A DNA stretch of 50,293 bases from Methylococcaceae bacterium (GTDB lineage: Bacteria; Pseudomonadota; Gammaproteobacteria; Methylococcales; Methylomonadaceae). Numbering within the stretch: position 1 is the first letter of the stretch; each line of letters starts with the position of its first letter. The notes beneath the pieces are model-generated. The model searched no databases and was not told where the DNA came from. It saw only the letters and a list, made by a program, of their open reading frames with translations. Below, piece after piece: positions 37,125 to 50,293 of this stretch. Both the position numbers and the translations under genes were made by a program. The stretch spans positions 1 through 50,293 of the forward strand of contig JBASLW010000084.1 of NCBI GenBank assembly GCA_049656545.1. The letters run 5' to 3'.

Positions 37125-39041
37125 ATGAAAAAATCTGTTGGTTATTATTTCCCCCATTCACTTAAAGCACGTTTAATTATTCTGACGTTATTGTTTTTAC
37201 TTTTACCGACAGGAATTTTAGGTTATCTCGGTTACGATTATTTATATAACACCATTAAAAACAATAACATTCGCGCTGTTGGACACATTGCAGATTCACG
37301 TCATGAACAACTTAACGTGATGCTTCAAAATACAAATAATCGAGCAACCCATTTTCTTGAAAATCTTTCTTTGCAATGTGAATCGGGAAATAAGCGAAAA
37401 ATCAATGATTGTTTAAAACAGGCGTTACAACTTTTTCTGAATAATGAACAAGCGTTAAGTGCCATTTTTACGAATGCAAATGGCGAAAAAATTAAAGTTG
37501 GTGATACGTTTTTATCTGAAATTTTGCCTTTCAAATCAAAACAATTAGTTGGCTTTAGTGCGCCTGAAAAAAATACACCCCGTTTATATTACATCGTCAT
37601 CCAAAATGAAAAAGGTGAACATTTAATCGTCACGTTTCCCATTCTTGAAATTCAAAAAATTTTTATCAGCGACCCCAGTTTAGGCGAATCGGGCGACGTT
37701 TTTATTATGGATTCGGAAGGTTTTTTTATTACGCAACCGCATTTACTTGATACCGATAGTCCGCAAGAAGCCAAAAATGACCACGCAATGCACCATTGTT
37801 TAATGATGGGTAACGCTGAAATGCTTGATGTGGATAGGCGAAATGTCGAAATTATTCACAGTTTTCGATTTGTCCCTGAAGTTGGTGGCGGTTGCATCAT
37901 GGCACATTTAGATCAAGCAGAAGCCTTTTCGGCGTTAGATATTCTGCAATGGCGTGTCATTTGGATTACGTTAGGGTTGATTATTTTTGCTTTGATTCTC
38001 GCGCTAATTGTTGGACGAAATATCGTCAAACCAATAGAAAAACTTTGCGCGGTGACACATCAAATTATTAACGGCAACTACACAATTTCAGCCGTTGTTG
38101 CTGGAGATGACGAAATTGCTGAATTAGCAAATGCGTTTAATTTAATGACAGAACGTTTGAAATGCGCGTTTGATGAATTAAATGCCCATCGCGCTCAACT
38201 TGAACATAAAGTTCAAAAACGCACCGCTGAATTATCAATTGCAAAGGATGAAGCAGAGCAATCGTTAATGTTATTGCAACAAACCAAAGAAAATTTAGTT
38301 CAAGCCGAAAAAATGGCAGCATTAGGTGGTTTGGTTGCGGGAATTTCGCACGAAATCAATACACCGATTGGCATTACAGTTACGTCCGCTTCATTTTTAA
38401 ATGTAGAAACGAACAAAGTCATTGAACTTTATCAAGAGGGAGAATTGGGCGGTGACGAATTAGAATTCTATTTTGAAACCGCCAAACAATCCACAGAATT
38501 GATGATGATAAATTGCCAACGTGCAGCAGATTTGATTCACAGTTTTAAACAAATTTCTGTTGATCAAACTAGCGATAATTTGCGTGAATTTAATTTGAAA
38601 AATTATCTGGAAGAAATTTTATTAAGTTTGCGTCCTGCGCTTAAAAAAACACGGATTAACGTTGAATTAAATTGTTTACCAAGTTTATTTGTTTTTGGTT
38701 ATCCAGGTGCGATTTCGCAAATTGTGACCAATTTTGTCATGAATTCTTTGTTTCATGCCTACGAACCGAATCAAATCGGCACGATTAAATTAAATGTTAC
38801 GCTGTTTTCAGCACACAAAATTGAGTTGTGTTATAGCGATGACGGAAAAGGAATTCGACACGATATTCAAAATAAAATTTTTGACCCTTTTTTCACGACA
38901 CAACGCGGTAATGGCGGCAGCGGTTTAGGGCTTCATGTTGTGTATAACCTTGTGCATCAAGTGTTAAAAGGCTCACTGCAAATCGACAGCATTGAAGGTA
39001 AAGGTACTACTTTTATTGTTAATTTTCCAAAACGAATGTAA
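37125..39041 (+). CDS. Sensor histidine kinase (periplasmic Cache-like domain, HAMP, DHp, HATPase)
   Basis: 638 aa, two TM segments, HAMP (DEIAELANAFNLM), H-box GISHEINTPIG, and N/G boxes (NSLFHA, GSGLGLH). Confidence 0.85.
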   Translation: MKKSVGYYFPHSLKARLIILTLLFLLLPTGILGYLGYDYLYNTIKNNNIRAVGHIADSRHEQLNVMLQNTNNRATHFLENLSLQCESGNKRKINDCLKQALQLFLNNEQALSAIFTNANGEKIKVGDTFLSEILPFKSKQLVGFSAPEKNTPRLYYIVIQNEKGEHLIVTFPILEIQKIFISDPSLGESGDVFIMDSEGFFITQPHLLDTDSPQEAKNDHAMHHCLMMGNAEMLDVDRRNVEIIHSFRFVPEVGGGCIMAHLDQAEAFSALDILQWRVIWITLGLIIFALILALIVGRNIVKPIEKLCAVTHQIINGNYTISAVVAGDDEIAELANAFNLMTERLKCAFDELNAHRAQLEHKVQKRTAELSIAKDEAEQSLMLLQQTKENLVQAEKMAALGGLVAGISHEINTPIGITVTSASFLNVETNKVIELYQEGELGGDELEFYFETAKQSTELMMINCQRAADLIHSFKQISVDQTSDNLREFNLKNYLEEILLSLRPALKKTRINVELNCLPSLFVFGYPGAISQIVTNFVMNSLFHAYEPNQIGTIKLNVTLFSAHKIELCYSDDGKGIRHDIQNKIFDPFFTTQRGNGGSGLGLHVVYNLVHQVLKGSLQIDSIEGKGTTFIVNFPKRM

Positions 39042-39056
39042 AAAAATCTCAACACA

Positions 39057-40535
39057 ATGACTGAAAAAAAACCGCTTAACTTAAAAACTCAAAATACATT
39101 TTCATCTAAATTAACCACAACGTCTCATGCTATACCGTGGCGAATTTTAGTTGTCGATGATGAAGAAGATGTTCATTCCGTGACGCGCTTAATTTTGACA
39201 AAAATTGCGTTTAAAAATCGTCCTGTTGAATTATTGTGTGCTTATTCTGCGTTTGAAGCGCGTGACATTTTGGCGCGTGAAAAAAATATCGCGGTGATTT
39301 TGCTTGATGTCGTGATGGAAACCGATGATGCGGGATTGCGACTGGTTAAAATTATTCGTGATGATTTACATAATCATGAAGTTCGGATTATTTTGCGAAC
39401 AGGACAACCAGGACAAGCTCCCGAAGAGCGCGTGATTGTTGATTACGATATTAACGATTACAAAGCGAAAAACGAATTAACCTCGCAAAAATTATTTACC
39501 GCTGTGATTTCTGCATTACGCGCTTATGAAACCATTATGTCGCTCAATAAAACACGACGCGGGTTAGAGAAAATTCTGCACAGTTCAGATTCTCTTTTTA
39601 AAATTCAATCGATGCACGAATTTGCATCGGGAATTTTGGCGCAATTAAGTTTATTTTTGGATTGTCAACCGCAAGGCATTATTTGTATTGAACAAAATAG
39701 AGATGGCGATGTTGAACCGATTTCCTGTTTGCCAAACAACATGAAAATTATTGCGGTAACAGAAGAATTTGAATGTTGTTTGCGTTGTCATTTAGACCAT
39801 TCGTGTGGACATGACGAAATTGCCAACATGATTAAAACCGCGTTATACGAACGAAAAAATCAATTTAGTGAGCAATACTCCGCCTTTTATTTAGACACTA
39901 ATGACGATAAAGCGACCATTGCGTTGGTGTATAGCGAAAAAGAAATTGAAAAACACGATTTGGATTTACTTGAAGTTTTCACGTCAAAAATTTCGATTGC
40001 GTTAGCTAACGCGATTCATTATCAAAAAATGGTTACCTTTGAAAAAGCGGCTGTGACCGATTTTTTAACGAATTTGAATAATCGTCGTCAGTTGTTACGT
40101 TTAGGTTTGCCGATGTTAGCATTGGCAAATCGCAATAATCGATTAGCAGTCGCCATGATTGACATCGATTTGTTTAAACAAGTGAATGATTTATATGGTC
40201 ATGATGTTGGCGATATTGTGTTGAAACACATTAGCAAAATGATGGGTGAGCGTTTTCGTAGTTGTGATGTGGTGGCGCGTTATGGTGGTGAAGAATTTTG
40301 CATTCTTGCGCCGTCATTGAATTCACCACAATTAGCCTTTGAATTATTTGATAATTTTCGAATATCGTTAGCAAATTCAGACATTCAAATTTCAGAAACA
40401 CAAACGTTGAAAATTACAGTCAGTATCGGTGTAACAACCGATTTATGTCCCAATTTAGACGATATGATTACAGCCGCTGATTATTTGTTGTACAAAGCGA
40501 AAAATAAAGGGCGAAATTGCGTAATGGTAAAATAA
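39057..40535 (+). CDS. Response regulator REC-(DUF3369-like linker)-GGDEF diguanylate cyclase
   Basis: 492 aa. REC ([36 protein letters not shown]), then a GGDEF domain with an RYGGEEF active site and an RSCD I-site. Confidence 0.9.
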
Positions 40536-42547: not shown

Positions 42548-42573
42548 AATTGTTAAATTTCCAAAAAAGAAAA

Positions 42574-42601
42574 ACCGCCTGATGATGACTCATCAGGCGG
42601 T
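42574..42601. terminator. Intrinsic terminator closing the chemosensory operon (minus strand; also usable from plus)
   Basis: ACCGCCTGATGA-TGAC-TCATCAGGCGGT, a 12-bp perfect stem. On the minus strand it is followed by TTTTCTTTTTT. Confidence 0.65.
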
Positions 42602-42657
42602 CTTTCCCCACTTTTTTCAACAACAAACAAACTTAAAACACACTAACACTTTTTCAA

Positions 42658-43386
42658 CTAAACACCTGTACCAACTTGTAACGAATCAAACCAATCTAAG
42701 AAGCGTTTTACATCGTCACCTTTAAACATCCGTCCATGTTGAGGAGCTAAAATATCAATATCTAAATTTCTAACACGGTCAATCCAAGCACGTTTTGCTT
42801 GATTTGATGGCATCATACGTTGATGGTAATAACGCATTTTTTCAACGTGAACATCAAAACGTTCTACGAAAACAGGCGCACCTGCATTTTCAAATGCAGA
42901 ACCGACACTGCCACACATCAAAATTTTCGCAACAGGATCATAAACATGAAAACCACAAGGCGAATGTAAATAATGAGCAGGAATCAATTGCAATTCAACC
43001 GCTTCAATTTTAATCGTTTCGCCATTATCTGGAATTGGCACATATTCAATTGATTCACAACCGAAATGTCTAATGTAACCTTCCCACAACGCAGGCGCGT
43101 GTAATCTCGCATTTGATAAGGCTTGATCCCACAAACCTAACGATGAAATCACGTCAGGGTCTTGATGCGAAGCAAATAAATCGGTGATTTGTTCAACAGG
43201 TGCATGATGCAAAACAGCTGCCATCATCGGCGCAAATAACTCTGTACCACCTGGCTCAAGTAATAAACATTTATTCGCTGTGCGAACAATATATTGATTA
43301 CTATCAATAATGTTATCGGGTTTATTTTCGTCGCGCCCAAACATCACCCATTGATGCGCTCCTTCGTAAATTTTAGTCATTTTCAT
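42658..43386 (-). CDS. ODP-like protein: stand-alone flavodiiron-type metallo-beta-lactamase-fold domain
   Basis: 242 aa, collinear with the N-terminal MBL domain of flavodiiron proteins (QYIV....LLLEPGG, ASHQDPDV at the HxExDH position, IPAHYLHSP, LMCGSVGSAF, RYYHQRMMP, APQHGRMF). No flavodoxin domain. Strong RBS (AGAGGAG). Last gene of the che operon. Confidence 0.6.
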   Translation of the reverse strand: MKMTKIYEGAHQWVMFGRDENKPDNIIDSNQYIVRTANKCLLLEPGGTELFAPMMAAVLHHAPVEQITDLFASHQDPDVISSLGLWDQALSNARLHAPALWEGYIRHFGCESIEYVPIPDNGETIKIEAVELQLIPAHYLHSPCGFHVYDPVAKILMCGSVGSAFENAGAPVFVERFDVHVEKMRYYHQRMMPSNQAKRAWIDRVRNLDIDILAPQHGRMFKGDDVKRFLDWFDSLQVGTGV

Positions 43387-43404
43387 GAAAATGCTGCTCC
43401 TCTT

Positions 43405-44019
43405 TTAACTATTGCGATAAATGGATAATGCGATTCGGCAACGTTGCACATTATCATGAATGGTATGTGCGGCTTTATCGACACTTTCGGCGACCGCTTG
43501 CAAACTTTGCAAATACTCACCTGCTTGCGATGCTTCAATGCGAGAGTTTGCCGCAATAACACGGGCAGCTCTGGCATGGTGCATCACCGCTTCGAGTTGC
43601 CCCAACAATTGTGTAACATCACGTTTAAATTGACGTTGACAATCTTGCATAATGGTTCGTGCATGTGTAATCGGTTCTTGCATTGAATCCGCATAACGTG
43701 CGCCAACGGCTAATTTTCCAACTTGTTCAAAGCGGTTGTAAGCGGCGGTACGTCTGTATTCATTCACGGTTAAACGGTACAAAAGTAACGCATAAACGTT
43801 GATATTGGTGACTAATTCAATGGTTTCTTTTGCTAATTCGTTAATAAAATCGGTAATCGGTTGAAAGCCTTTCGCTTTATCACCTGCGCGAAACGCAATG
43901 GCTTTTGCATTTGCAGCGGCTAACGAAATTTCTTTTGCCACGACCATAACGGCACTCAACTCCGACGTAATCGAAGCGACCGCGATAAATTGTGATTTTG
44001 TCTGACTGTTCATAATCAT
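43405..44019 (-). CDS. Small soluble MCP-signalling-domain-like protein with two hairpin-tip-like motifs
   Basis: 204 aa with no TM segment. Residues 30-66 (EISLAAANAKAIAFRAGDKAKGFQPITDFINELAKET) and 153-184 (RVIAANSRIEASQAGEYLQSLQAVAESVDKAA) both align to the MCP tip consensus [31 protein letters not shown]. Confidence 0.6.
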   Translation of the reverse strand: MIMNSQTKSQFIAVASITSELSAVMVVAKEISLAAANAKAIAFRAGDKAKGFQPITDFINELAKETIELVTNINVYALLLYRLTVNEYRRTAAYNRFEQVGKLAVGARYADSMQEPITHARTIMQDCQRQFKRDVTQLLGQLEAVMHHARAARVIAANSRIEASQAGEYLQSLQAVAESVDKAAHTIHDNVQRCRIALSIYRNS

Positions 44020-44075: not shown

Positions 44076-45149
44076 TTAGCGCAATCCTGTTTTAACTAAT
44101 GCCAAAACTTTCTCGGCAATATCATCTAATGGCACAACATAATCCGCGCAACCCAATTTAAAGGCAGCACCAGGCATTCCCCAAACAACACTCGACGCTT
44201 CATCTTGTACAATAGTTTTTGCACCCGATTCTTTCATTGCTTGCATCCCAATTGCGCCATCTGCTCCCATTCCTGTTAGCAAAACGCATACCGCATTTGA
44301 ACCTGTACATTTTGCAGCGGAATGAAACAACACATCAACAGAAGGTTTATGTCGATTAACAGGCGCACCGTCTTGTAATTGAATAATGTACTGGTTGTTG
44401 TTTCGTATCACTTCCATGTGTTGATCGCCAGGTGCAAGATAGATATTGCCCCATTCAACAACCTGTCCATGAGTCGGAATACTGGCAGTCATATCGGTCG
44501 CTGCGTCAATATGTTTAACAAATGAATCACTAAATGCCGCTGGTAAATGTTGTGTAATCAAAATGGGCGGACAATCTGCTGGCAGTGTTTTAACAACCAC
44601 TTTAATCGCTTCTGTACCACCTGTGGACGAACCGAGTACGATAATTTTATTAAATCCTGTCGCATTTCGTGCCGCAATCATGCGTTTAATTGCCAACGTT
44701 TCTTGCGAATGCTGCGCGGCTTCGCCATGACCTTGAAGCGTTTTTAAATTTGTGCGTGACGCAATGCGAACTTTTGAAATAATTTCAGCCGTGTAATCAG
44801 CTAATCCTGTTTCAGTGTTACCTTTGGGTTTTGCTAAAAAATCCACTGCCCCAATCGCCAACGCTTCAAGTGTTGCTTCTGCACCGCGTTCTGTTAGCGT
44901 CGAAATCATGACAACAGGCGTTGGACGCAAGCGCATTAAATTTCGTAAAAACGTAATGCCATCCATTTGCGGCATTTCAATATCGAGTGTTAATACATCA
45001 GGATTGAGTTGTTTAATCATTTCCCGAGCAATTAGCGGATTTTCAGCCGCACCAACCACTTCAATATCGTCAGCGGTTTCTAATATACTCGTTAAAATTT
45101 TGCGGACTAACAATGAATCATCAATAATCAATACACGGATTTTATTCAT
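44076..45149 (-). CDS. cheB: Chemotaxis response regulator protein-glutamate methylesterase CheB
   Basis: 357 aa. REC (VLIIDDS, LTLDIEMPQMDG) plus an esterase domain (GSSTGGTEA, the HMEV region, LTGMGADG). Confidence 0.95.
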   Translation of the reverse strand: MNKIRVLIIDDSLLVRKILTSILETADDIEVVGAAENPLIAREMIKQLNPDVLTLDIEMPQMDGITFLRNLMRLRPTPVVMISTLTERGAEATLEALAIGAVDFLAKPKGNTETGLADYTAEIISKVRIASRTNLKTLQGHGEAAQHSQETLAIKRMIAARNATGFNKIIVLGSSTGGTEAIKVVVKTLPADCPPILITQHLPAAFSDSFVKHIDAATDMTASIPTHGQVVEWGNIYLAPGDQHMEVIRNNNQYIIQLQDGAPVNRHKPSVDVLFHSAAKCTGSNAVCVLLTGMGADGAIGMQAMKESGAKTIVQDEASSVVWGMPGAAFKLGCADYVVPLDDIAEKVLALVKTGLR

Positions 45150-45161
45150 GTTTGGCTCGAC

Positions 45162-45797
45162 TTAAAATAACTCAACATCGCCTTCAACAGGCAACTCTTT
45201 AATGTTTCTGGAGTATTGACGTTCCCGTTGAGCAATAGTGTCATTGTGTAAATCTTGAATTTTTTTCATACCGACTTTGCCCGTTTTAGGAAAATAAATC
45301 ACTTTTCGTGGATAAATATCTCCTAAATCTTTGGACAATAACGCTAACCCTTCTTGGTCGATGTAATCCAAAACAAAACTGATATTTCGTTCTCCCACAT
45401 CGCTTAACGTCGGAATAATTTTTCCACCACCAAACACTTTGACTTCTAAATTTTTACGTTTTCCACCATTTGACAAAATGGTGTTAATTAAATGTTCCAT
45501 CGCGTAATTGCCGTAACGTGTAGCATTACCAATCATCGCGTCACTACCTTGGCGCATTTTTTCCGCGTACGTTTCAGGCAACATAAAATGATTCATACCA
45601 CCAATACCTGTTTCTTTATCTCGAATACAGGCTGCAATACACGAACCTAACACGGTGGTAATTAACTCATTTTGAGTTGTAACGTAGTATTCGCCTGGCA
45701 AAATCTTGGCGGCAATAACGCCATGATCTTGATCTAAATAACGATTCACATGGTCAAAACCTTGAACCGAGGGTCTGTCAATTTGATTGCGATCCAT
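45162..45797 (-). CDS. cheD: Chemoreceptor glutamine deamidase CheD
   Basis: 211 aa with TVLGSCIAACIRD, GIGGMNHFMLPE and VKVFGGG. Confidence 0.9.
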   Translation of the reverse strand: MDRNQIDRPSVQGFDHVNRYLDQDHGVIAAKILPGEYYVTTQNELITTVLGSCIAACIRDKETGIGGMNHFMLPETYAEKMRQGSDAMIGNATRYGNYAMEHLINTILSNGGKRKNLEVKVFGGGKIIPTLSDVGERNISFVLDYIDQEGLALLSKDLGDIYPRKVIYFPKTGKVGMKKIQDLHNDTIAQRERQYSRNIKELPVEGDVELF

Positions 45798-45803
45798 TTT
45801 ATT

Positions 45804-46640
45804 TTATATATTTTTTCTATAACTGGTGGTTGCCACTAATTCAAACTCGCTTGAAAGCTGATTCAAGGACTCTGAATGTCCAATAAATAACCAAGATTTA
45901 CTCACCAACAGTTTAGCATAACGTTTTGCAAGCGCAGCTTTAGTTTCGCGGTCAAAATAGATCAATACATTACGACAAAAAATTACATCAAATGGCGTAG
46001 TCATTGACCATTCCTGCATCAAATTAAGTTGCCGAAACTGAATGATTTCTTGCAATTGCGGTTTAACTTTAACGTATTCAGGTGATGATTTACTTTTCAT
46101 AAACCAACGTTTTAAAACAGACGTTGGTAATTCAGCAATTCTGTCTTGAGCATAAATGCCTTCTGAAGCCGTTTGTAAAACTTGCGTATCTAAATCGGTC
46201 GCTAAAATTTTAACATCCCAATCTGACGGGACATTTTCAAGCATCGTCATTGCGATAGAATAAGGTTCTTCACCTGTTGAACAACCCGCAGACCAAATCC
46301 GAATTTGTTTTGTTGCCGCATTACGTTTTAACAATTCAGGAATGACAACTTCACGCAAATAATCAAAATGGTGCATTTCACGGAAAAATGACGTGAGATT
46401 TGTCGTAATTGCGTTAATAAAATCGGTAAATTCCTCTTCATGATTGCTTTGCAAATAATCGCAATACTCTGAAAAGTCGTTTAACCCCAAACGGCGTACT
46501 CGTTTTGAAAGACGTGAATAAAACATATCAAAACGTTCGTCTGGTACTTGAATTCCTGAATGGGAATTCGACAATTTTCTTAAAACGTTAAAGTCTTCGA
46601 CGGTAAATTTAAATTCACGCTCTTTTTCTACAATAGCCAT
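45804..46640 (-). CDS. cheR: Chemotaxis protein methyltransferase CheR
   Basis: 278 aa with TNLTSFFRE, IRIWSAGCSTGEEPYSIAM and IFCRNVLIYFD. Confidence 0.93.
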   Translation of the reverse strand: MAIVEKEREFKFTVEDFNVLRKLSNSHSGIQVPDERFDMFYSRLSKRVRRLGLNDFSEYCDYLQSNHEEEFTDFINAITTNLTSFFREMHHFDYLREVVIPELLKRNAATKQIRIWSAGCSTGEEPYSIAMTMLENVPSDWDVKILATDLDTQVLQTASEGIYAQDRIAELPTSVLKRWFMKSKSSPEYVKVKPQLQEIIQFRQLNLMQEWSMTTPFDVIFCRNVLIYFDRETKAALAKRYAKLLVSKSWLFIGHSESLNQLSSEFELVATTSYRKNI

Positions 46641-46668: not shown

Positions 46669-47388
46669 CTACTCAGATATTTCAAGCACTGATAATAAAT
46701 CCAATAATTTAGCGGATTCAATAAATCGCGCTGATGGATAAATAATGTTGATAGTTTTGCCTAAATTTGGTGCATCTTTTTTTAGAGAAACTAACATTTG
46801 AAATGTGGCGGTATCAATGGTTGTGACATCTGAAGCGTTAATTTCAATTGTATCGTGAGCTGCCAACGTTTTTTTGAATGTTTCATGAAGTTCAGCAATC
46901 GTTTTCAAACTGGCTTCACTTCCTAATTCCACTAACGGTTCAATGAATGCGTCAATGATTTCTTCTTCAATAACAGTTTCTTCAGGCATCGCGTCACTCT
47001 CAGTCTGGGCTTCTTCGGTTTGTTCGCTAATTTCCTCAACAAGAGCATCTAAAACTGCGTTTTCCGTTTGCGATTCAGTGTTTTCGGATGCAACATCAAT
47101 TTGAATTGCTACGTTTTCGTTTGCTTCAATCGTAATTTCAATTTCGCCGTTTTCATCAATGCTTACGTCAATTTCAACTTCTTCATCAACAATTTCGTCT
47201 GTTTTTTCCAACACAACGGGCAATTCTTCAGGTGTTTCTGCTACGTTTTCAGTTTCTTCAATAACAGGCGCGGTTTTCGATTTCGCTTTTGCTCGCACCT
47301 TTTTTACTGGCGCAACAGGAACGTCGTCAATCGTTTCGCCATCCATCCATGCTAAAGGATCGTAACCAATTAAATTATTTGTTGTCAT
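46669..47388 (-). CDS. Highly acidic protein with N-terminal basic peptide and C-terminal STAS (anti-sigma-antagonist-like) domain
   Basis: 239 aa. N-terminus LIGYDPLAWM then VKKVRAKAKSK, a Glu/Asp-rich linker of about 120 aa, and a C-terminal region of about 90 aa with a STAS-like pattern (LKTIAELHETFKK...IEINASDVTTIDTATFQMLVSL). The start overlaps the parA-like stop by 14 nt. Confidence 0.55.
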   Translation of the reverse strand: MTTNNLIGYDPLAWMDGETIDDVPVAPVKKVRAKAKSKTAPVIEETENVAETPEELPVVLEKTDEIVDEEVEIDVSIDENGEIEITIEANENVAIQIDVASENTESQTENAVLDALVEEISEQTEEAQTESDAMPEETVIEEEIIDAFIEPLVELGSEASLKTIAELHETFKKTLAAHDTIEINASDVTTIDTATFQMLVSLKKDAPNLGKTINIIYPSARFIESAKLLDLLSVLEISE

Positions 47389-48148
47389 TGTTCATTACTC
47401 TATTTTCAAGAAAATCATTGGCAAGGTTGCGGAAATCTCGTGCAGAACGGCTTTTAGGACTGTATTCCAAAATCGTTTGCCCAAAACTAGGACATTCGGC
47501 AAGCAAGGCAGTTTCACGAATGACGGTCGCTAAAACCTGATTCGGGAAATGTGACAATAAAATGTTTAATACCTGATCTGAAATTCGGCGTGTCGAAATA
47601 AACCGAGAAATCACCACGGACAATTTATATTGTCTTTTCAACGCCCCTTCAAAGCGTTTCACTGTCGCCATTAAATGCGATAAACCTTGCAACGATAAGA
47701 AATCACTCGCCATTGGTACTAAAATTTCATGCGTGGCAATTAACGCATTTGCGACAAGTAAGCCAGACGATGGTGGACAATCAATAAAGATAAAATCTTG
47801 ATCGACAAGTTGTCCTTTTAACGCATCACGCAACAAAACGCCTCTCGGTGTTCCGTTATTACTCATTTGTTCAACATCTTTGAGCTTTGAACCTGCGGGA
47901 ATCAATTGCAAATTCTCACGCACTTTTATTGTGACATCTTCAACCGTTTTTTCTTTAAGCATTGCTAAGTCAATGCCCTGAAGATCGTGAGAAATAACAC
48001 CAAATGAAACGGCTAAATGTCCTTGCGGGTCAAAATCAATCACCGTTACTTTTTTGCCTAATTCCGCTAATGCGTGACACAAATTCGCCGTCGTCGTCGT
48101 TTTACCTACGCCGCCTTTTTGATTGATAATGGCAATTAAACGTGTCAT
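47375..48148 (-). CDS. ParA/MinD-family ATPase embedded in the che operon (ParC/PpfA-like)
   Basis: 257 aa with the deviant Walker A (INQKGGVGKTTT), IIDCPPS-type Walker B (FIFIDCPPS) and a ParA-like C-terminus. Confidence 0.85.
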   Translation of the reverse strand: MTRLIAIINQKGGVGKTTTTANLCHALAELGKKVTVIDFDPQGHLAVSFGVISHDLQGIDLAMLKEKTVEDVTIKVRENLQLIPAGSKLKDVEQMSNNGTPRGVLLRDALKGQLVDQDFIFIDCPPSSGLLVANALIATHEILVPMASDFLSLQGLSHLMATVKRFEGALKRQYKLSVVISRFISTRRISDQVLNILLSHFPNQVLATVIRETALLAECPSFGQTILEYSPKSRSARDFRNLANDFLENRVMNNDNK

Positions 48149-48150
48149 GT

Positions 48151-48681
48151 CTACAAGTCTTCAGCTTCAGCAAAATCTGAAATAGCTTCCATGTCATCAA
48201 CTTCATCTGGATTGAGAAGTTTATCGACATCAAGCAACATAATCATATTTTGTTTATAAACGTGCATTCCTCGCATATAACGAGTGTCAAGTTGCGAACC
48301 AAAATTTGGGGCTTTTTTGATTTCATTCGTTTTAATATCAAGTACATCCGATACCGCATCTGCCACAATTCCCATGACAAATGTATCAGTACGATGATGT
48401 TTAATACATAAAACAATAACAACCGTTTTGTGTGTATATTCGCAATGTTCAAGTGAAAAACGTTCGCGCAAATCGACAATTGGAATCACAGAGCCACGCA
48501 AATTCAAAACGCCTTTGATAAAAGAAGGGGCATTAGGAATAACACGAACAGCTTCCCACCCTCTGATTTCTTGTACTTTTAAAATTTCCACGCCATAGAC
48601 TTCGTTAGCGAGTTCAAACGTTAAAAATTGTTCGATTTGTTTAGGATCTATTTGTTTATTTGAATCAGTTGTCATGGTCAT
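48151..48681 (-). CDS. cheW: Chemotaxis coupling protein CheW
   Basis: 176 aa with FLTFELANEVYGVEILKVQEI and GVLNLRGSVIPIVDLR. Confidence 0.93.
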   Translation of the reverse strand: MTMTTDSNKQIDPKQIEQFLTFELANEVYGVEILKVQEIRGWEAVRVIPNAPSFIKGVLNLRGSVIPIVDLRERFSLEHCEYTHKTVVIVLCIKHHRTDTFVMGIVADAVSDVLDIKTNEIKKAPNFGSQLDTRYMRGMHVYKQNMIMLLDVDKLLNPDEVDDMEAISDFAEAEDL

Positions 48682-48720: not shown

Positions 48721-50293
48721 TTAAAATTCTTCCCAATCATCACCAATACTGTTCACCGATGAAGTAACTGGTTTTGAAACGATGGATTTATTTGATTGTG
48801 ATGCGTTTGCCGCAGGTTTTGAAGCCATTACTTGATGTCGTGCTGAACCCGATTTTTTGCCAACACTAAAGAAATCAAGCAATTTTGTCATTCTCGCTGA
48901 TTGATCACTCATTGCCATACTACCTGCGGCGGCTTCTTCGGCTAATGCAGCATTTTGTTGGGTAATGTCGTCCATTTGTGCAATAGCTTGATTGACTTGA
49001 TTGATTCCCGCCGATTGTTCACTACTTGATAACGTAATATGTCCAACAATATCGCCCACTTTGGCAATACTATCGACAATTTCCATTAACGCTGCCCCTG
49101 TTTCATTTACAAATGCCGTGCCAGAACGCACTTTTTGAACACTATTTTGAATTAGCTCGCTACTTTGTGCGGCAGCATTCGCGCTACGTTGTGCTAAATT
49201 TCTGACTTCTGTTGCAACAACTGAAAAACCACGACCTTGTTCACCTGCTCTCGCGGCTTCAACGGACGCATTTAATGCTAACAAATTTGTTTGGAACGCA
49301 ATTTCATCAATCACACCAATAATTTCGGCAATTTTATTACTACTTTCATTGATTTCTTGCATCGCCATGATTGCTGAACGAACAACGTCACCACCTTTTT
49401 CAGCCAATTGTGTTGCTGATTGAACCACTTTTGTCGCTTGATTTGTATTTTCAGCATTACTTTTTACCGCACTCGACAATTCGTGCATACTCGCGGCGGT
49501 TTCTTCTAAACTTGCCGCTTGTTGTTCAACACGATGTGACAAATTGTTGTTACCACTTGCCATTTCTTGTGACGAATTATTGACAAATGCCGCCGCTTCA
49601 TGAATCTGAACAATCAACTCGCTAATTTTACTCATTGTGTTATTGATATTTTCTTTACATTCAGCGTAAGTACCTTGGTAATCGGCTTGTATAGAATCCG
49701 TTAAATCACCATTCGACATTTTTTCGACAACGCGATTGATTTCACTAAACGCATTCTCAATCACGTCTGTTAATTCATTGATGTTAATCGATAAGGCTTT
49801 AGCAAAACCCTCTTTGCCAACTAAATTGATTCTCGCATTAAGCTGACCCACTTTGATTGAATTCACCAAGTTTTGGATTTCATATTCAATTTGCGTTTCT
49901 TGAGTTCTATCAAGCCATTCTGCAACATACCCAATTCGCTCACCATTGTTTGTAATAACAGGTGTTGCAATCACTTGCATCACATGACCTGCCAACTTAA
50001 TTTCTATCGTTGCAGACGATTGCAAATTAAAAAGCAAATCTCGCTGATAAGTCGGATTTTTATGGAATATACTAAAATTTGTGCCTAACAATTGTGCGGC
50101 TTTAAAATTAGGTAATTCTTTTCTAATGTCATTTTCAGCGTTGATAAATAAATTTTTTGCCGCCTTATTGATATAAATAACTTCTAAATTTGAATTTGCA
50201 ATTAAAACGCTAGATTGAACGTTTTCTAAACCACTGATAATTCGTATCGAATCCGCTGTTGCTTGGCGCGAAGCACCTAAATCGCCACCTAAT
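48721..50293 (-). CDS. Aer2/McpB-like soluble chemoreceptor (PAS-heme, di-HAMP, MCP signalling domain, C-terminal DWEEF), 5' end outside window
   Basis: I translated the frame manually and it stays open to the window edge (...[49 protein letters not shown]...AEWLDRTQE). This matches the P. aeruginosa Aer2 PAS as I remember it, including the FHKNP His and a Trp exactly 49 residues later. Canonical tip [26 protein letters not shown]. Ends GDDWEEF. Confidence 0.85.

What the first reader, a model, noticed from the sequence alone, without database searches (positions are those of the whole stretch)
42658..43386. ODP-like flavodiiron-type MBL protein with substituted metal ligands as the terminal gene of the che operon
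The protein aligns along its length to the MBL-like di-iron domain of flavodiiron proteins and lacks the flavodoxin domain. That architecture was described for the oxygen-binding di-iron protein ODP of Treponema/Thermotoga, which is encoded next to a small soluble chemoreceptor, and the same pairing is seen here.

The canonical HxExDH motif reads H74-Q-D76-P-D78-V79. The position of the bridging Asp (LFSxDAFG in FDPs) reads LMCGSVGSAF. So at least two classical ligands appear to be replaced.

This may mean a different metal stoichiometry or a different ligand specificity from described ODPs. An ODP-like protein next to an Aer2-type cluster in a gammaproteobacterium is not something I know to be described.
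Basis: partly seen in the sequence, partly recalled or inferred. Interest (0 to 1): 0.65.

Follow-up and report, generated by a model that had tools for sequence, protein, structure and literature searches.

The report
ODP oxygen sensor lacking its bridging aspartate
This gene encodes a member of the known ODP family of iron-based oxygen sensors for bacterial chemotaxis, in a freshwater methane-oxidising bacterium; one of its two reported "substitutions" is simply the family norm, but the other, loss of the aspartate that bridges the two irons, is real and is conserved across about 23 related species.

Summary
The ORF 42658-43386 (-), 242 aa, is real and is clearly an ODP-family protein. It scores 213 bits against Pfam PF19583. 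Its best PDB hits are the T. maritima and T. denticola ODPs (E 7e-58 and 6e-49). The AF2 model matches Tm ODP at TM 0.94. There is no flavodoxin domain. It follows a 204-aa sensor-less mini-chemoreceptor by 18 nt, ends an Aer2-type che operon, and is followed by a strong terminator.

The second is real: the motif-4 bridging Asp is Ser160.

- Asp is invariant in 117/117 other close homologues and in 55 other Methylococcales species.
- Ser occurs in 21 species-level genomes of the window's clade, and Lys in 2 Methylocucumis species.
- These two groups are sisters, so one ancestral loss is the simplest account.
- The loss is fixed together with F104Y and F/W187Y. Position 187 aligns with the second-sphere Tyr197 of flavodiiron proteins.
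- All six other ligands are invariant, and dN/dS is 0.027, the same as in Asp-bearing relatives.

This is a functional, remodelled metal site and not decay. I rate it a new variant of a known kind, of moderate interest.

The parts
42658..43386 (-). ODP-family gene, 242 aa plus stop
   Evidence: Pfam PF19583 213 bits over the full domain. PDB 6qrq E 7e-58 and 6qnm E 6e-49. AF2 pLDDT 95.5. Foldseek TM 0.94 to Tm ODP.
43150..43167 (-). Motif 2, H74-Q-D76-P-D78-V79: the canonical ODP form of HxExDH, supplying ligands H74, D76 and D78
   Evidence: Identical in Tm and Td ODP. HQDPD[VI] in 118/120 homologues. Invariant in all 78 species CDS compared.
42964..42966 (-). H141, the motif-3 His ligand
   Evidence: Aligns with the motif-3 His of Tm FDP, PWLHWPD. 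Invariant in the S, K and D clades.
42907..42909 (-). Codon 160, AGT = Ser, at the position of the motif-4 bridging Asp
   Evidence: Aligns with D of SGDIGAA in Tm/Td ODP and with SCDVG of Tm FDP. Asp in 117/117 other close homologues. Ser (AGT/AGC) in 21 species, Lys (AAA) in 2, Asp in 57 of 80.
42736..42741 (-). Q216-H217, motif 5; the Gln is the ODP-specific replacement ligand
   Evidence: PMC7785958. APQHG in 119/120 homologues. Invariant in the S and K clades.
42826..42828 (-). Tyr187, clade-specific (Phe/Trp in Asp-bearing relatives). Homologous to the second-sphere Tyr197 of T. maritima FDP.
   Evidence: Alignment to 4dik, chain Y209 minus a 12-residue tag. Y in 23/23 S/K species; F or W in 55/55 D species.
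43075..43077 (-). Tyr104, clade-specific (Phe in relatives and in Tm/Td ODP)
   Evidence: Y in 23/23 S/K species, F in 53/55 D species.
43387..43404 (-). 18-nt intergenic spacer with the Shine-Dalgarno sequence AAGAGGAG, between the miniMCP stop and the ODP start
   Evidence: Gaps of 18-34 nt in nearly all of the 76 species genomes that carry the pair.
43405..44019 (-). Sensor-less mini-chemoreceptor, 204 aa, built from two tip-like repeats
   Evidence: MCPsignal 22 bits, below the cut-off. Best PDB hit is TM14, 3g6b/3g67. Internal repeat of residues 14-82 with 137-202, E 4e-6. 453 homologues of about 202 aa, named 'chemotaxis protein' by their sources.
42566..42609 (-). Intrinsic terminator of the operon: G+C-rich hairpin followed by a U-tract
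   Evidence: strand folding -31.6 kcal/mol, z -4.8, 0 of 200 shuffles as good.
44076..45149 (-). cheB
   Evidence: CheB_methylest plus Response_reg.
45162..45797 (-). cheD
   Evidence: PF03975.
45804..46640 (-). cheR
   Evidence: PF01739 plus PF03705.
46669..47388 (-). STAS-domain protein
   Evidence: PF13466.
47375..48148 (-). ParA/MinD-like ATPase
   Evidence: PF13614, PF01656.
48151..48681 (-). cheW
   Evidence: PF01584.
48721..50293 (-). C-terminal two thirds of a soluble Aer/Aer2-type MCP. The ORF runs off the window end.
   Evidence: The frame is open to the window end. HAMP_2 plus MCPsignal. The full-length 770-aa relative matches Aer PAS (8dik, 2e-38) and Aer2 PAS-HAMP (3vol, 4.6e-48).

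Best explanation
The gene encodes a true ODP-family sensor: an MBL-fold, non-haem iron protein without a flavodoxin domain. It is co-transcribed with a sensor-less soluble mini-chemoreceptor as the last two genes of an Aer2-type che operon. The host is an uncultured freshwater Methylococcales methanotroph, sister to Methylocucumis.

By analogy with T. denticola and T. maritima ODP (inferred, not tested), it would bind Fe(II) and O2 at the MBL metal site. It would then pass that state through the mini-receptor to CheA, adding a third redox/O2 input beside the Aer-like and Aer2-like PAS domains of the large receptor in the same cluster.

The HQDPDV motif and the Q216-H217 pair are the normal ODP ligand set. 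What is unusual is a one-time remodelling of the metal pocket in the ancestor of this clade:
- The protein-derived bridging carboxylate (Asp160) was lost. It is now Ser in the window's clade and Lys in Methylocucumis.
- Two tyrosines were fixed at positions 104 and 187. Position 187 is the site of the second-sphere Tyr of flavodiiron proteins.

The six other ligands, three for each metal position, stay invariant under undiminished purifying selection. The most likely state is therefore a site that still binds metal. It would have 3+3 ligands and be bridged only by solvent, oxo or peroxo, as in B3 metallo-beta-lactamases, which carry Ser at the same motif-4 position. Its Fe(II) and O2 affinity or peroxo stability would be altered.

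Shown: family identity, gene pairing, the substitution pattern, its phylogenetic distribution, selective constraint, and evidence of transcription in situ from RNA-library contigs of related strains. Inferred: metal content, O2 binding and signalling.
For: - Family identity: Pfam ODP 213 bits against a cut-off of 27.2. PDB ODPs at E 7e-58 and 6e-49, against flavodiiron proteins at about 0.01. AF2 pLDDT 95.5. Foldseek TM 0.94, rmsd 1.7 A to Tm ODP, against about 0.8 for FDP cores.
- ODP ligand set: PMC7785958, with column mapping to Tm FDP.
- Asp160 loss: 117/117 Asp in other close homologues. 21 species with Ser, 2 with Lys, 57 with Asp.
- Single origin: the S and K clades are sisters, nested among Asp-bearing lineages.
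- Constraint: median dN/dS is 0.027 within the S clade (160 pairs), 0.027 within the D clade (363 pairs), and 0.105 across the D/S split (20 pairs). H74, D76, D78, H141, Q216, H217 and H188 are invariant in all 23 S/K species. Y104 and Y187 are fixed in 23/23.
- Gene pairing: the miniMCP-ODP pair is present in 76/80 species. The pair is either inside a che cluster or stand-alone.
- Operon end: terminator hairpin.
- Expression: freshwater metatranscriptome contigs of related strains cover ODP, the miniMCP and cheB, and none of the differences printed falls in codon 160 (207 further differences were not printed).
Against: - No metal, O2 or protein-interaction measurement exists for any Methylococcales ODP.
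- The tools return no coordinates, so I could not measure how close Ser160, Tyr104 and Tyr187 lie to the metal positions.
- Ser and Lys are poor iron ligands, and a di-iron site without a protein bridge has no precedent within ODPs or flavodiiron proteins.
- A sub-clade has additionally lost the otherwise invariant His107 (to Asn), which could indicate progressive erosion of O2 chemistry.
- The primary ODP paper (Muok et al. 2019, PNAS) was not available, so its ligand description comes second-hand and from my own knowledge.
- Evidence of expression comes from contigs of related strains only, and DNA carry-over cannot be excluded.
Confidence: 0.6

Rival explanations
1. The site has become mononuclear or metal-labile. 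Without the bridging Asp only one half-site, for example the H74/D76/H141 2-His-1-carboxylate triad, holds iron tightly. The protein then reports mainly Fe(II) availability and not O2, which would be useful in iron-rich anoxic lake water.
For: - The only ligand shared by both metals is lost.
- From my own knowledge of Muok et al. 2019, ODP is described as a sensor of both Fe(II) and O2, with apo and holo conformations. PDB holds apo, Zn and peroxo forms.
- The clade's genomes come from lake, groundwater and thaw-pond metagenomes.
Against: Ligands of both half-sites (D78, Q216, H217 as well as H74, D76, H141) are invariant in 23 species at saturating dS. That is not expected if one half-site were idle.
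Confidence: 0.22
2. It is a metal-free pseudo-sensor. The protein no longer binds metal and serves as a constitutive structural or regulatory partner of the mini-receptor, like the metal-free class C flavodiiron cores.
For: - Precedent: the Synechocystis Flv1 core has ligand changes that prevent metal binding (PMC7785958).
- Other ODP-family representatives without Asp160 have lost several ligands together: P0133, P0136, P0168, P0226, P0230.
Against: Unlike those proteins, this clade keeps all six remaining ligands invariant, and dN/dS equals that of Asp-bearing relatives. Gaining two Tyr in the pocket looks like compensation, not decay.
Confidence: 0.1
3. The Ser codon is a sequencing or assembly error, or the gene is a decaying pseudogene.
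For: None beyond the oddity of the residue.
Against: - AGT/AGC is found in 21 independent species-level assemblies and in the 4 contigs that carry P0002, assembled from different samples.
- AAA is found in two independent Methylocucumis genomes.
- The ORFs are intact and dN/dS is 0.027.
- A freshwater metagenome run holds the window sequence at 100% of sampled words.
Confidence: 0.01
4. It is a flavodiiron-type O2/NO reductase core or an ordinary hydrolytic MBL, and not a sensor.
For: Distant similarity to FDP cores (NCBIfam flavorubredoxin 27 bits; Foldseek TM about 0.8). Several sources name it 'flavoprotein' or 'flavorubredoxin'.
Against: - It has no flavodoxin domain and no HxExDH or HxHxDH motif.
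- The NCBIfam score of 27 is far below the cut-off of 635.
- ODP hits are 50 orders of magnitude better.
- It is tightly coupled to an MCP-like gene.
Confidence: 0.03

Closest known systems
ODP (oxygen-binding di-iron protein) of Treponema denticola (TDE2498; PDB 6QNM, 6R9N) and Thermotoga maritima (PDB 6QRQ, 6QWO); Pfam PF19583
   Same: - Same fold (TM 0.86-0.94) and same length, with no flavodoxin domain.
- Same HQDPDV motif 2, motif-3 His and motif-5 Gln-His.
- Encoded next to a sensor-less soluble MCP-like protein and linked to chemotaxis genes.
   Different: - The motif-4 bridging Asp (SGDIGAA) is Ser (CGSVGSA).
- Phe104 and Phe187 are Tyr.
- The host is an aerobic gammaproteobacterial methanotroph and not an anaerobe.
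- The partner receptor is a 204-aa tandem of two tip-like repeats, not a single long hairpin like TM14.
- Identity to the solved ODPs is only 32-39% in the structural alignment.
Asp160-bearing ODP orthologues of Methylobacter, Methylomonas, Methylovulum and Methyloprofundus
   Same: - 74-85% identical, all 242 aa.
- Same miniMCP-ODP gene pair, often in the same che cluster.
- Equal purifying selection (dN/dS 0.027).
   Different: They keep Asp160, Phe104 and Phe/Trp187. The window's clade does not. dN/dS across the split is about four times higher (0.105).
Flavodiiron proteins (FDPs, e.g. T. maritima TM0755, M. thermoacetica FprA)
   Same: MBL-like core with a non-haem metal site. Position 187 of the window protein carries Tyr, like the conserved second-sphere Tyr197 of Tm FDP.
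   Different: - No flavodoxin domain.
- HxDxDV instead of HxExDH.
- A Gln ligand from motif 5.
- No bridging Asp.
- A sensor context and not a reductase context.
B3 metallo-beta-lactamases (e.g. L1, FEZ-1), from established knowledge of MBL numbering
   Same: MBL fold with Ser at the motif-4 position (residue 221). The binuclear site has 3+3 protein ligands and only a solvent bridge. This shows that a two-metal MBL site can exist without a protein bridge.
   Different: Zinc hydrolases with an HxHxDH motif, periplasmic, and unrelated in function. The comparison is an analogy only.
Class C flavodiiron cores with non-canonical ligands (Synechocystis Flv1, PDB 6H0C/6H0D)
   Same: Natural replacement of metal ligands in the same fold.
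   Different: Flv1 has changes in motifs 2, 3 and 4 together and binds no metal (PMC7785958). Here only motif 4 is changed.

Membership tests
ODP family (Pfam PF19583) | Scores above the curated threshold of the ODP profile over the whole domain | tested here: met
   213.3 bits against a cut-off of 27.2; profile positions 1-194 of 194.
ODP family (Pfam PF19583) | Stand-alone MBL-like domain with the ODP fold and no flavodoxin domain | tested here: met
   242 aa with only ODP and Lactamase_B hits. AF2 pLDDT 95.5. TM 0.94 to 6qwo.
ODP family (Pfam PF19583) | Motif 2 reads H-x-D-x-D-[V/I], so the third His of HxExDH is absent | tested here: met
   H74-Q-D-P-D-V79, identical to Tm and Td ODP.
ODP family (Pfam PF19583) | Motif-5 Gln-His pair, the Gln replacing the missing motif-2 His as a ligand | tested here: met
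   Q216-H217. Ligand role as stated in PMC7785958.
ODP family (Pfam PF19583) | Motif-3 His ligand | tested here: met
   H141 aligns with the FDP motif-3 His and is invariant.
ODP family (Pfam PF19583) | Motif-4 Asp bridging the two irons | tested here: not met
   Ser160 (AGT) in place of the Asp of SGDIGAA. The protein is an ODP by descent, but its di-iron site cannot be assumed.
ODP family (Pfam PF19583) | Genetic coupling to a cytoplasmic chemoreceptor that lacks a sensor domain | tested here: met
   A 204-aa MCP-like gene lies 18 nt upstream. The pair is conserved in 76/80 species.
ODP family (Pfam PF19583) | Binds two Fe and forms a stable peroxo adduct with O2; modulates CheA | not testable with these tools
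   Needs purified protein. No data for any Methylococcales ODP were found in the literature searches.
Flavodiiron proteins | MBL-like core fused to a flavodoxin (FMN) domain | tested here: not met
   No flavodoxin domain. NCBIfam flavorubredoxin 27 bits against a cut-off of 635.
Flavodiiron proteins | HxExDH motif 2 and a bridging Asp | tested here: not met
   HQDPDV and Ser160.
Hydrolytic metallo-beta-lactamase-fold enzymes | HxHxDH zinc motif | tested here: not met
   The motif is HQDPDV. The best hydrolase hits in PDB are at E about 0.01 over the N-terminal third only.
F7/Aer2-type chemosensory cluster (genomic context) | Soluble Aer2-like PAS-HAMP receptor together with CheA, CheW, CheR, CheD and CheB | tested here: met
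   CheW, CheR, CheD and CheB lie in the window. CheA and a 770-aa MCP lie in near-identical relatives. The Aer2 PAS-HAMP region matches at E 4.6e-48. Formal F-class assignment was not done.

The most novel reading that the evidence does not exclude
The window's clade and Methylocucumis carry a new kind of ODP metal centre. It has no protein-derived bridge (Ser or Lys at motif 4) and two added tyrosines, one at the flavodiiron second-sphere position. This would give a different metal stoichiometry or a different signal specificity from the described iron-peroxo ODPs. Examples would be lower O2 affinity suited to an O2-requiring methanotroph at the oxycline, or a shift to Fe(II), NO or peroxide sensing.
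Probability: 0.3. Interest if true: 0.6.

Novelty: new variant of a known kind. Interest (0 to 1): 0.42.

Why it matters
ODP is a recently described and little-studied non-haem iron O2/Fe(II) sensor. A 2026 review of aerotaxis receptors does not mention it.

Three points follow from the present analysis.

- **Ecological reach.** The miniMCP-ODP module is nearly universal in Methylococcales methanotrophs. These organisms must position themselves in opposing CH4 and O2 gradients, so ODP may matter for methane filtering in lakes.
- **A natural experiment.** About 23 species have lost the bridging carboxylate, kept every other ligand and gained two tyrosines, all under full purifying selection. 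This bears directly on how the unusually stable iron-peroxo state of ODP is built. It also supplies ready-made variants (S160, K160, Y104, Y187, and N107 in a sub-clade) to compare with Asp-bearing orthologues.
- **Annotation.** It corrects the idea that HQDPDV is a deviation from ODPs. It also flags that database names such as "flavorubredoxin" or "flavoprotein" for these proteins are misleading.

Tried and rejected
1. The primary ODP paper (Muok et al. 2019, PNAS; DOI and PMC6660769) is not held in the library. The ligand set was taken from PMC7785958 and from alignments.
2. PMC10653840 has nothing on ODP.
3. The consensus terminator scan missed the obvious hairpin. Folding the region showed it.
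4. The ORF listing suggested a 456-aa MCP starting at 50091. Translation shows the frame is open to the window end, so the gene is simply cut by the window.
5. An apparent Thr160 variant with all other ligands intact (P0176), and also P0229 and P0255, have frameshift-like junk around motif 4 and were discarded.
6. Cys158 was considered as a substitute thiolate ligand. It was rejected because position 158 varies (C/S/T) within the Ser clade.
7. Glu44 and Ser163 were considered as part of the same event. Both already occur in some Asp-bearing relatives (L030, L031, L035), so they predate the loss.
8. I looked for co-evolution in the mini-receptor and found no clade-specific fixed changes.
9. The AF2 model of the mini-receptor draws the first tip motif as a continuous helix. 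Its Foldseek search gave only generic helical bundles, with no hit at E <= 0.001. The C-terminal repeat alone gives no Pfam MCPsignal hit. The fold of the mini-receptor therefore stays unresolved.
10. Neither structure prediction nor fold search returns coordinates, so the planned superposition on the ODP di-iron site could not be done.

Full report
**Observation**

The minus-strand ORF 42658..43386 encodes 242 aa. It starts at an ATG preceded by AAGAGGAG.

**What it is**

- Pfam gives a full-length match to PF19583 'ODP family beta lactamase': 213.3 bits against a cut-off of 27.2. No other domain is found apart from the parent Lactamase_B.
- NCBIfam gives only a far sub-threshold flavorubredoxin hit, 27 bits against a cut-off of 635.
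- Against PDB sequences, the two solved ODPs lead by a wide margin: T. maritima 6qrq at E 6.7e-58 and T. denticola 6qnm at E 5.9e-49. Flavodiiron proteins and hydrolases sit near E 0.01.
- An AF2 model built from a 42-sequence alignment is confident (pLDDT 95.5, pTM 0.93).
- Foldseek places the model on Tm ODP at TM 0.94 and rmsd 1.7 A, on Td ODP at TM 0.86-0.88, and on FDP cores at about 0.8.

**The two 'substituted ligands'**

The residue-level alignments show that Tm ODP reads ytHQDPDVtSG and Td ODP reads fSHQDPDVsSG. Both are identical to the window. HQDPD[VI] is found in 118 of 120 close homologues. [quoted passage not shown] The window has that Q216-H217 pair. So HQDPDV is the family signature and not a deviation.

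A profile alignment to T. maritima FDP (4dik, the H90A variant) fixes the correspondences:

| Window residue | Tm FDP equivalent |
|---|---|
| V79 | residue 90 |
| H141 | motif-3 His |
| column 160 | bridging Asp of SCDVG |
| H217 | motif-5 His |

At column 160 both solved ODPs have Asp (SGDIGAA) and the window has Ser (CGSVGSA). That second observation is real.

**How unusual Ser160 is**

- Among the 120 best database homologues, all Methylococcales, Asp is present in 117. The exceptions are the two nearest relatives (Ser) and Methylocucumis oryzae (Lys).
- In one-genome-per-species GTDB contigs, 21 species-level genomes at 94-97% identity carry Ser (AGT or AGC). Two Methylocucumis genomes carry Lys (AAA). 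The 57 others carry Asp.
- Family-wide, among 50%-identity representatives that cover all sites, 71 of 82 have Asp. Most non-Asp members have lost several ligands at once or are frameshift junk. One has the conservative Glu.
- A clade that lacks only the bridging residue is thus rare in the family sample.

**Evolution of the change**

A neighbour-joining tree puts the Ser clade and the Lys clade as sisters, nested among Asp-bearing Methylovulum- and Methylobacter-like lineages. One loss in their common ancestor is the simplest account. GAY to AAY, then to AGY or AAR, are all single steps (inference).

The change did not come alone. Tyr104 and Tyr187 are fixed in all 23 S/K species. In contrast, 53 of 55 Asp-bearing species have Phe104, and 55 of 55 have Phe or Trp at 187. 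Position 187 aligns with chain residue Y209 of 4dik. After removing the 12-residue tag this is Tyr197. From my own knowledge of the FDP literature, Tyr197 is the conserved second-sphere tyrosine of flavodiiron proteins.

Of 14 clade-specific changes at otherwise conserved positions, 6 lie within three residues of a ligand or motif residue. About 2.7 would be expected, giving binomial p of about 0.04. A sub-clade has also changed the otherwise invariant His107 to Asn.

**Is it decaying?**

No. Pairwise Nei-Gojobori dN/dS at dS 0.4-1.6 gives these medians:

| Comparison | Median dN/dS | Pairs |
|---|---|---|
| Within the Ser clade | 0.027 | 160 |
| Within Asp-bearing genomes | 0.027 | 363 |
| Across the Asp/Ser split | 0.105 | 20 |

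The third figure points to a burst of amino-acid change followed by renewed constraint. dS is near saturation, so the ratios are approximate.

H74, D76, D78, H138, H141, H188, Q216 and H217 are invariant in all 23 S/K species. A freshwater metagenome run holds the window sequence at 100% of sampled words. Three freshwater metatranscriptome runs have contigs of related strains covering ODP, the mini-receptor and cheB. None of the differences printed near codon 160 falls in the codon itself, although 207 further differences were not printed. This evidence is at contig level only, and DNA carry-over is possible.

**Context**

- The ODP gene follows a 204-aa gene by 18 nt.
- It is followed about 50 nt downstream by a hairpin of -31.6 kcal/mol with a U-tract (z -4.8), then by a convergent gene. 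It is therefore the terminal gene of the operon.
- Upstream on the same strand lie cheB, cheD, cheR, a STAS protein, a ParA-like ATPase, cheW and a large MCP that runs off the window end.
- In near-identical relatives the cluster continues with cheW and cheA.
- The 770-aa MCP of relatives combines an Aer-like PAS domain (8dik, 2e-38) with an Aer2-like PAS-HAMP region (3vol, 4.6e-48). 'Aer2-type cluster' is thus supported.

**The mini-receptor**

- It scores below threshold for MCPsignal (22 bits).
- Its best PDB hit is TM14, the soluble T. maritima receptor. From my own knowledge, TM14 is the ODP partner in that organism.
- It is present directly upstream of ODP in 76 of 80 Methylococcales species. 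The pair sits either at the end of a che cluster or alone, as in Methylomonas albis.
- It shows no clade-specific changes that accompany the loss of Asp160.

**Mechanism**

This part is inferred. From my own knowledge of Muok et al. 2019 and from PMC7666581, T. denticola ODP senses O2 and Fe(II) and acts on CheA together with its sensor-less receptor. The window protein most likely does the same job in a soluble Aer2-type pathway.

All three ligands of each half-site are retained under full constraint. I therefore favour a site that still binds metal, now with 3+3 ligands and bridged by solvent, oxo or peroxo. The new tyrosines would tune or compensate. B3 metallo-beta-lactamases, with Ser at the equivalent residue 221, show that such a binuclear MBL site is possible (established knowledge, analogy only).

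The rivals are a mononuclear or labile Fe(II) sensor and a metal-free adaptor. An artefact or pseudogene is excluded.

**Novelty**

The family, the fold and the receptor pairing are known, and some of these proteins are already annotated as ODP-domain proteins by NCBI. In the held literature I found no description of ODPs in methanotrophs or of a bridge-less ODP clade. It is a new variant of a known kind, of moderate interest.

Noticed in passing
window 43405-44019 (-): The 204-aa mini-receptor is an internal tandem. Residues 14-82 align with 137-202 (28% identity, E 4e-6). Each repeat carries an MCP tip-like motif: AFRAGDKAKGF and EASQAGEYLQSL. It could be a single-chain mimic of an MCP dimer tip, or a two-tipped receptor. 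This differs from the single long hairpin of TM14. AF2 (pLDDT 84.7) draws the first tip as a continuous helix, so the fold is unresolved.
   Followed up: partly
window 48721-50293 (-); L008 2357-4669: The large MCP of the cluster is a hybrid: an N-terminal Aer-like (FAD-type) PAS domain, an Aer2-like (haem-type) PAS-HAMP region, and an MCP signalling domain. With ODP, the pathway may therefore have three separate redox/O2 inputs.
   Followed up: partly
window 46669-48148 (-): A ParA/MinD-like ATPase and a STAS-domain protein lie inside the che cluster between cheW and cheR, and are conserved in relatives (L001-L009). This recalls ParA-type partitioning of cytoplasmic chemoreceptor arrays (PpfA in Rhodobacter sphaeroides, from my own knowledge).
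   Followed up: no
L014, L017, L018, L020, L021, L027 and P0002 (codon 107 of the ODP gene; window 43066-43068 is still His): A sub-clade of the Ser160 group has also replaced His107 by Asn. His107 is invariant in 117/117 other close homologues and present in 66/82 family representatives. This is a second hit on a conserved pocket residue.
   Followed up: partly
P0129, P0147 (family representatives, not in the window): ODP domains occur fused to a bacterial truncated globin (P0129, 435 aa) and to a hemerythrin domain (P0147, 498 aa). That puts two different O2-binding modules in one protein.
   Followed up: no
P0136 (629 aa, not in the window): A distant ODP-domain protein independently shows SGSIGSA at motif 4 together with Tyr at position 187, the same combination as the window clade. 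It has also lost H74, Q216 and H217.
   Followed up: no
L005 / L032 (Methylocucumis oryzae Sn10-6, LAJX01000054.1): In this draft genome the che cluster looks fragmented. The Aer2-like MCP is split in two, there are extra short response-regulator ORFs, and no mini-receptor gene is called in the 647-bp gap before ODP. Frameshift errors in the assembly are the likely cause. The Lys160 codon is confirmed by a second Methylocucumis MAG (L033).
   Followed up: partly
window 42658-44019, runs X11, X19, X20: In freshwater metatranscriptome contigs, word depth over the ODP and mini-receptor genes (about 40-180 in X11) is higher than over cheB (about 23). This hints at stronger or separate expression of the two-gene module. 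Contig depth is a poor measure of expression.
   Followed up: no
window 37125-40535 (+): Just beyond the convergent neighbouring genes lie a dCache-HAMP histidine kinase and a response regulator with DUF3369 and GGDEF domains. These form a c-di-GMP signalling pair close to the chemotaxis operon.
   Followed up: no
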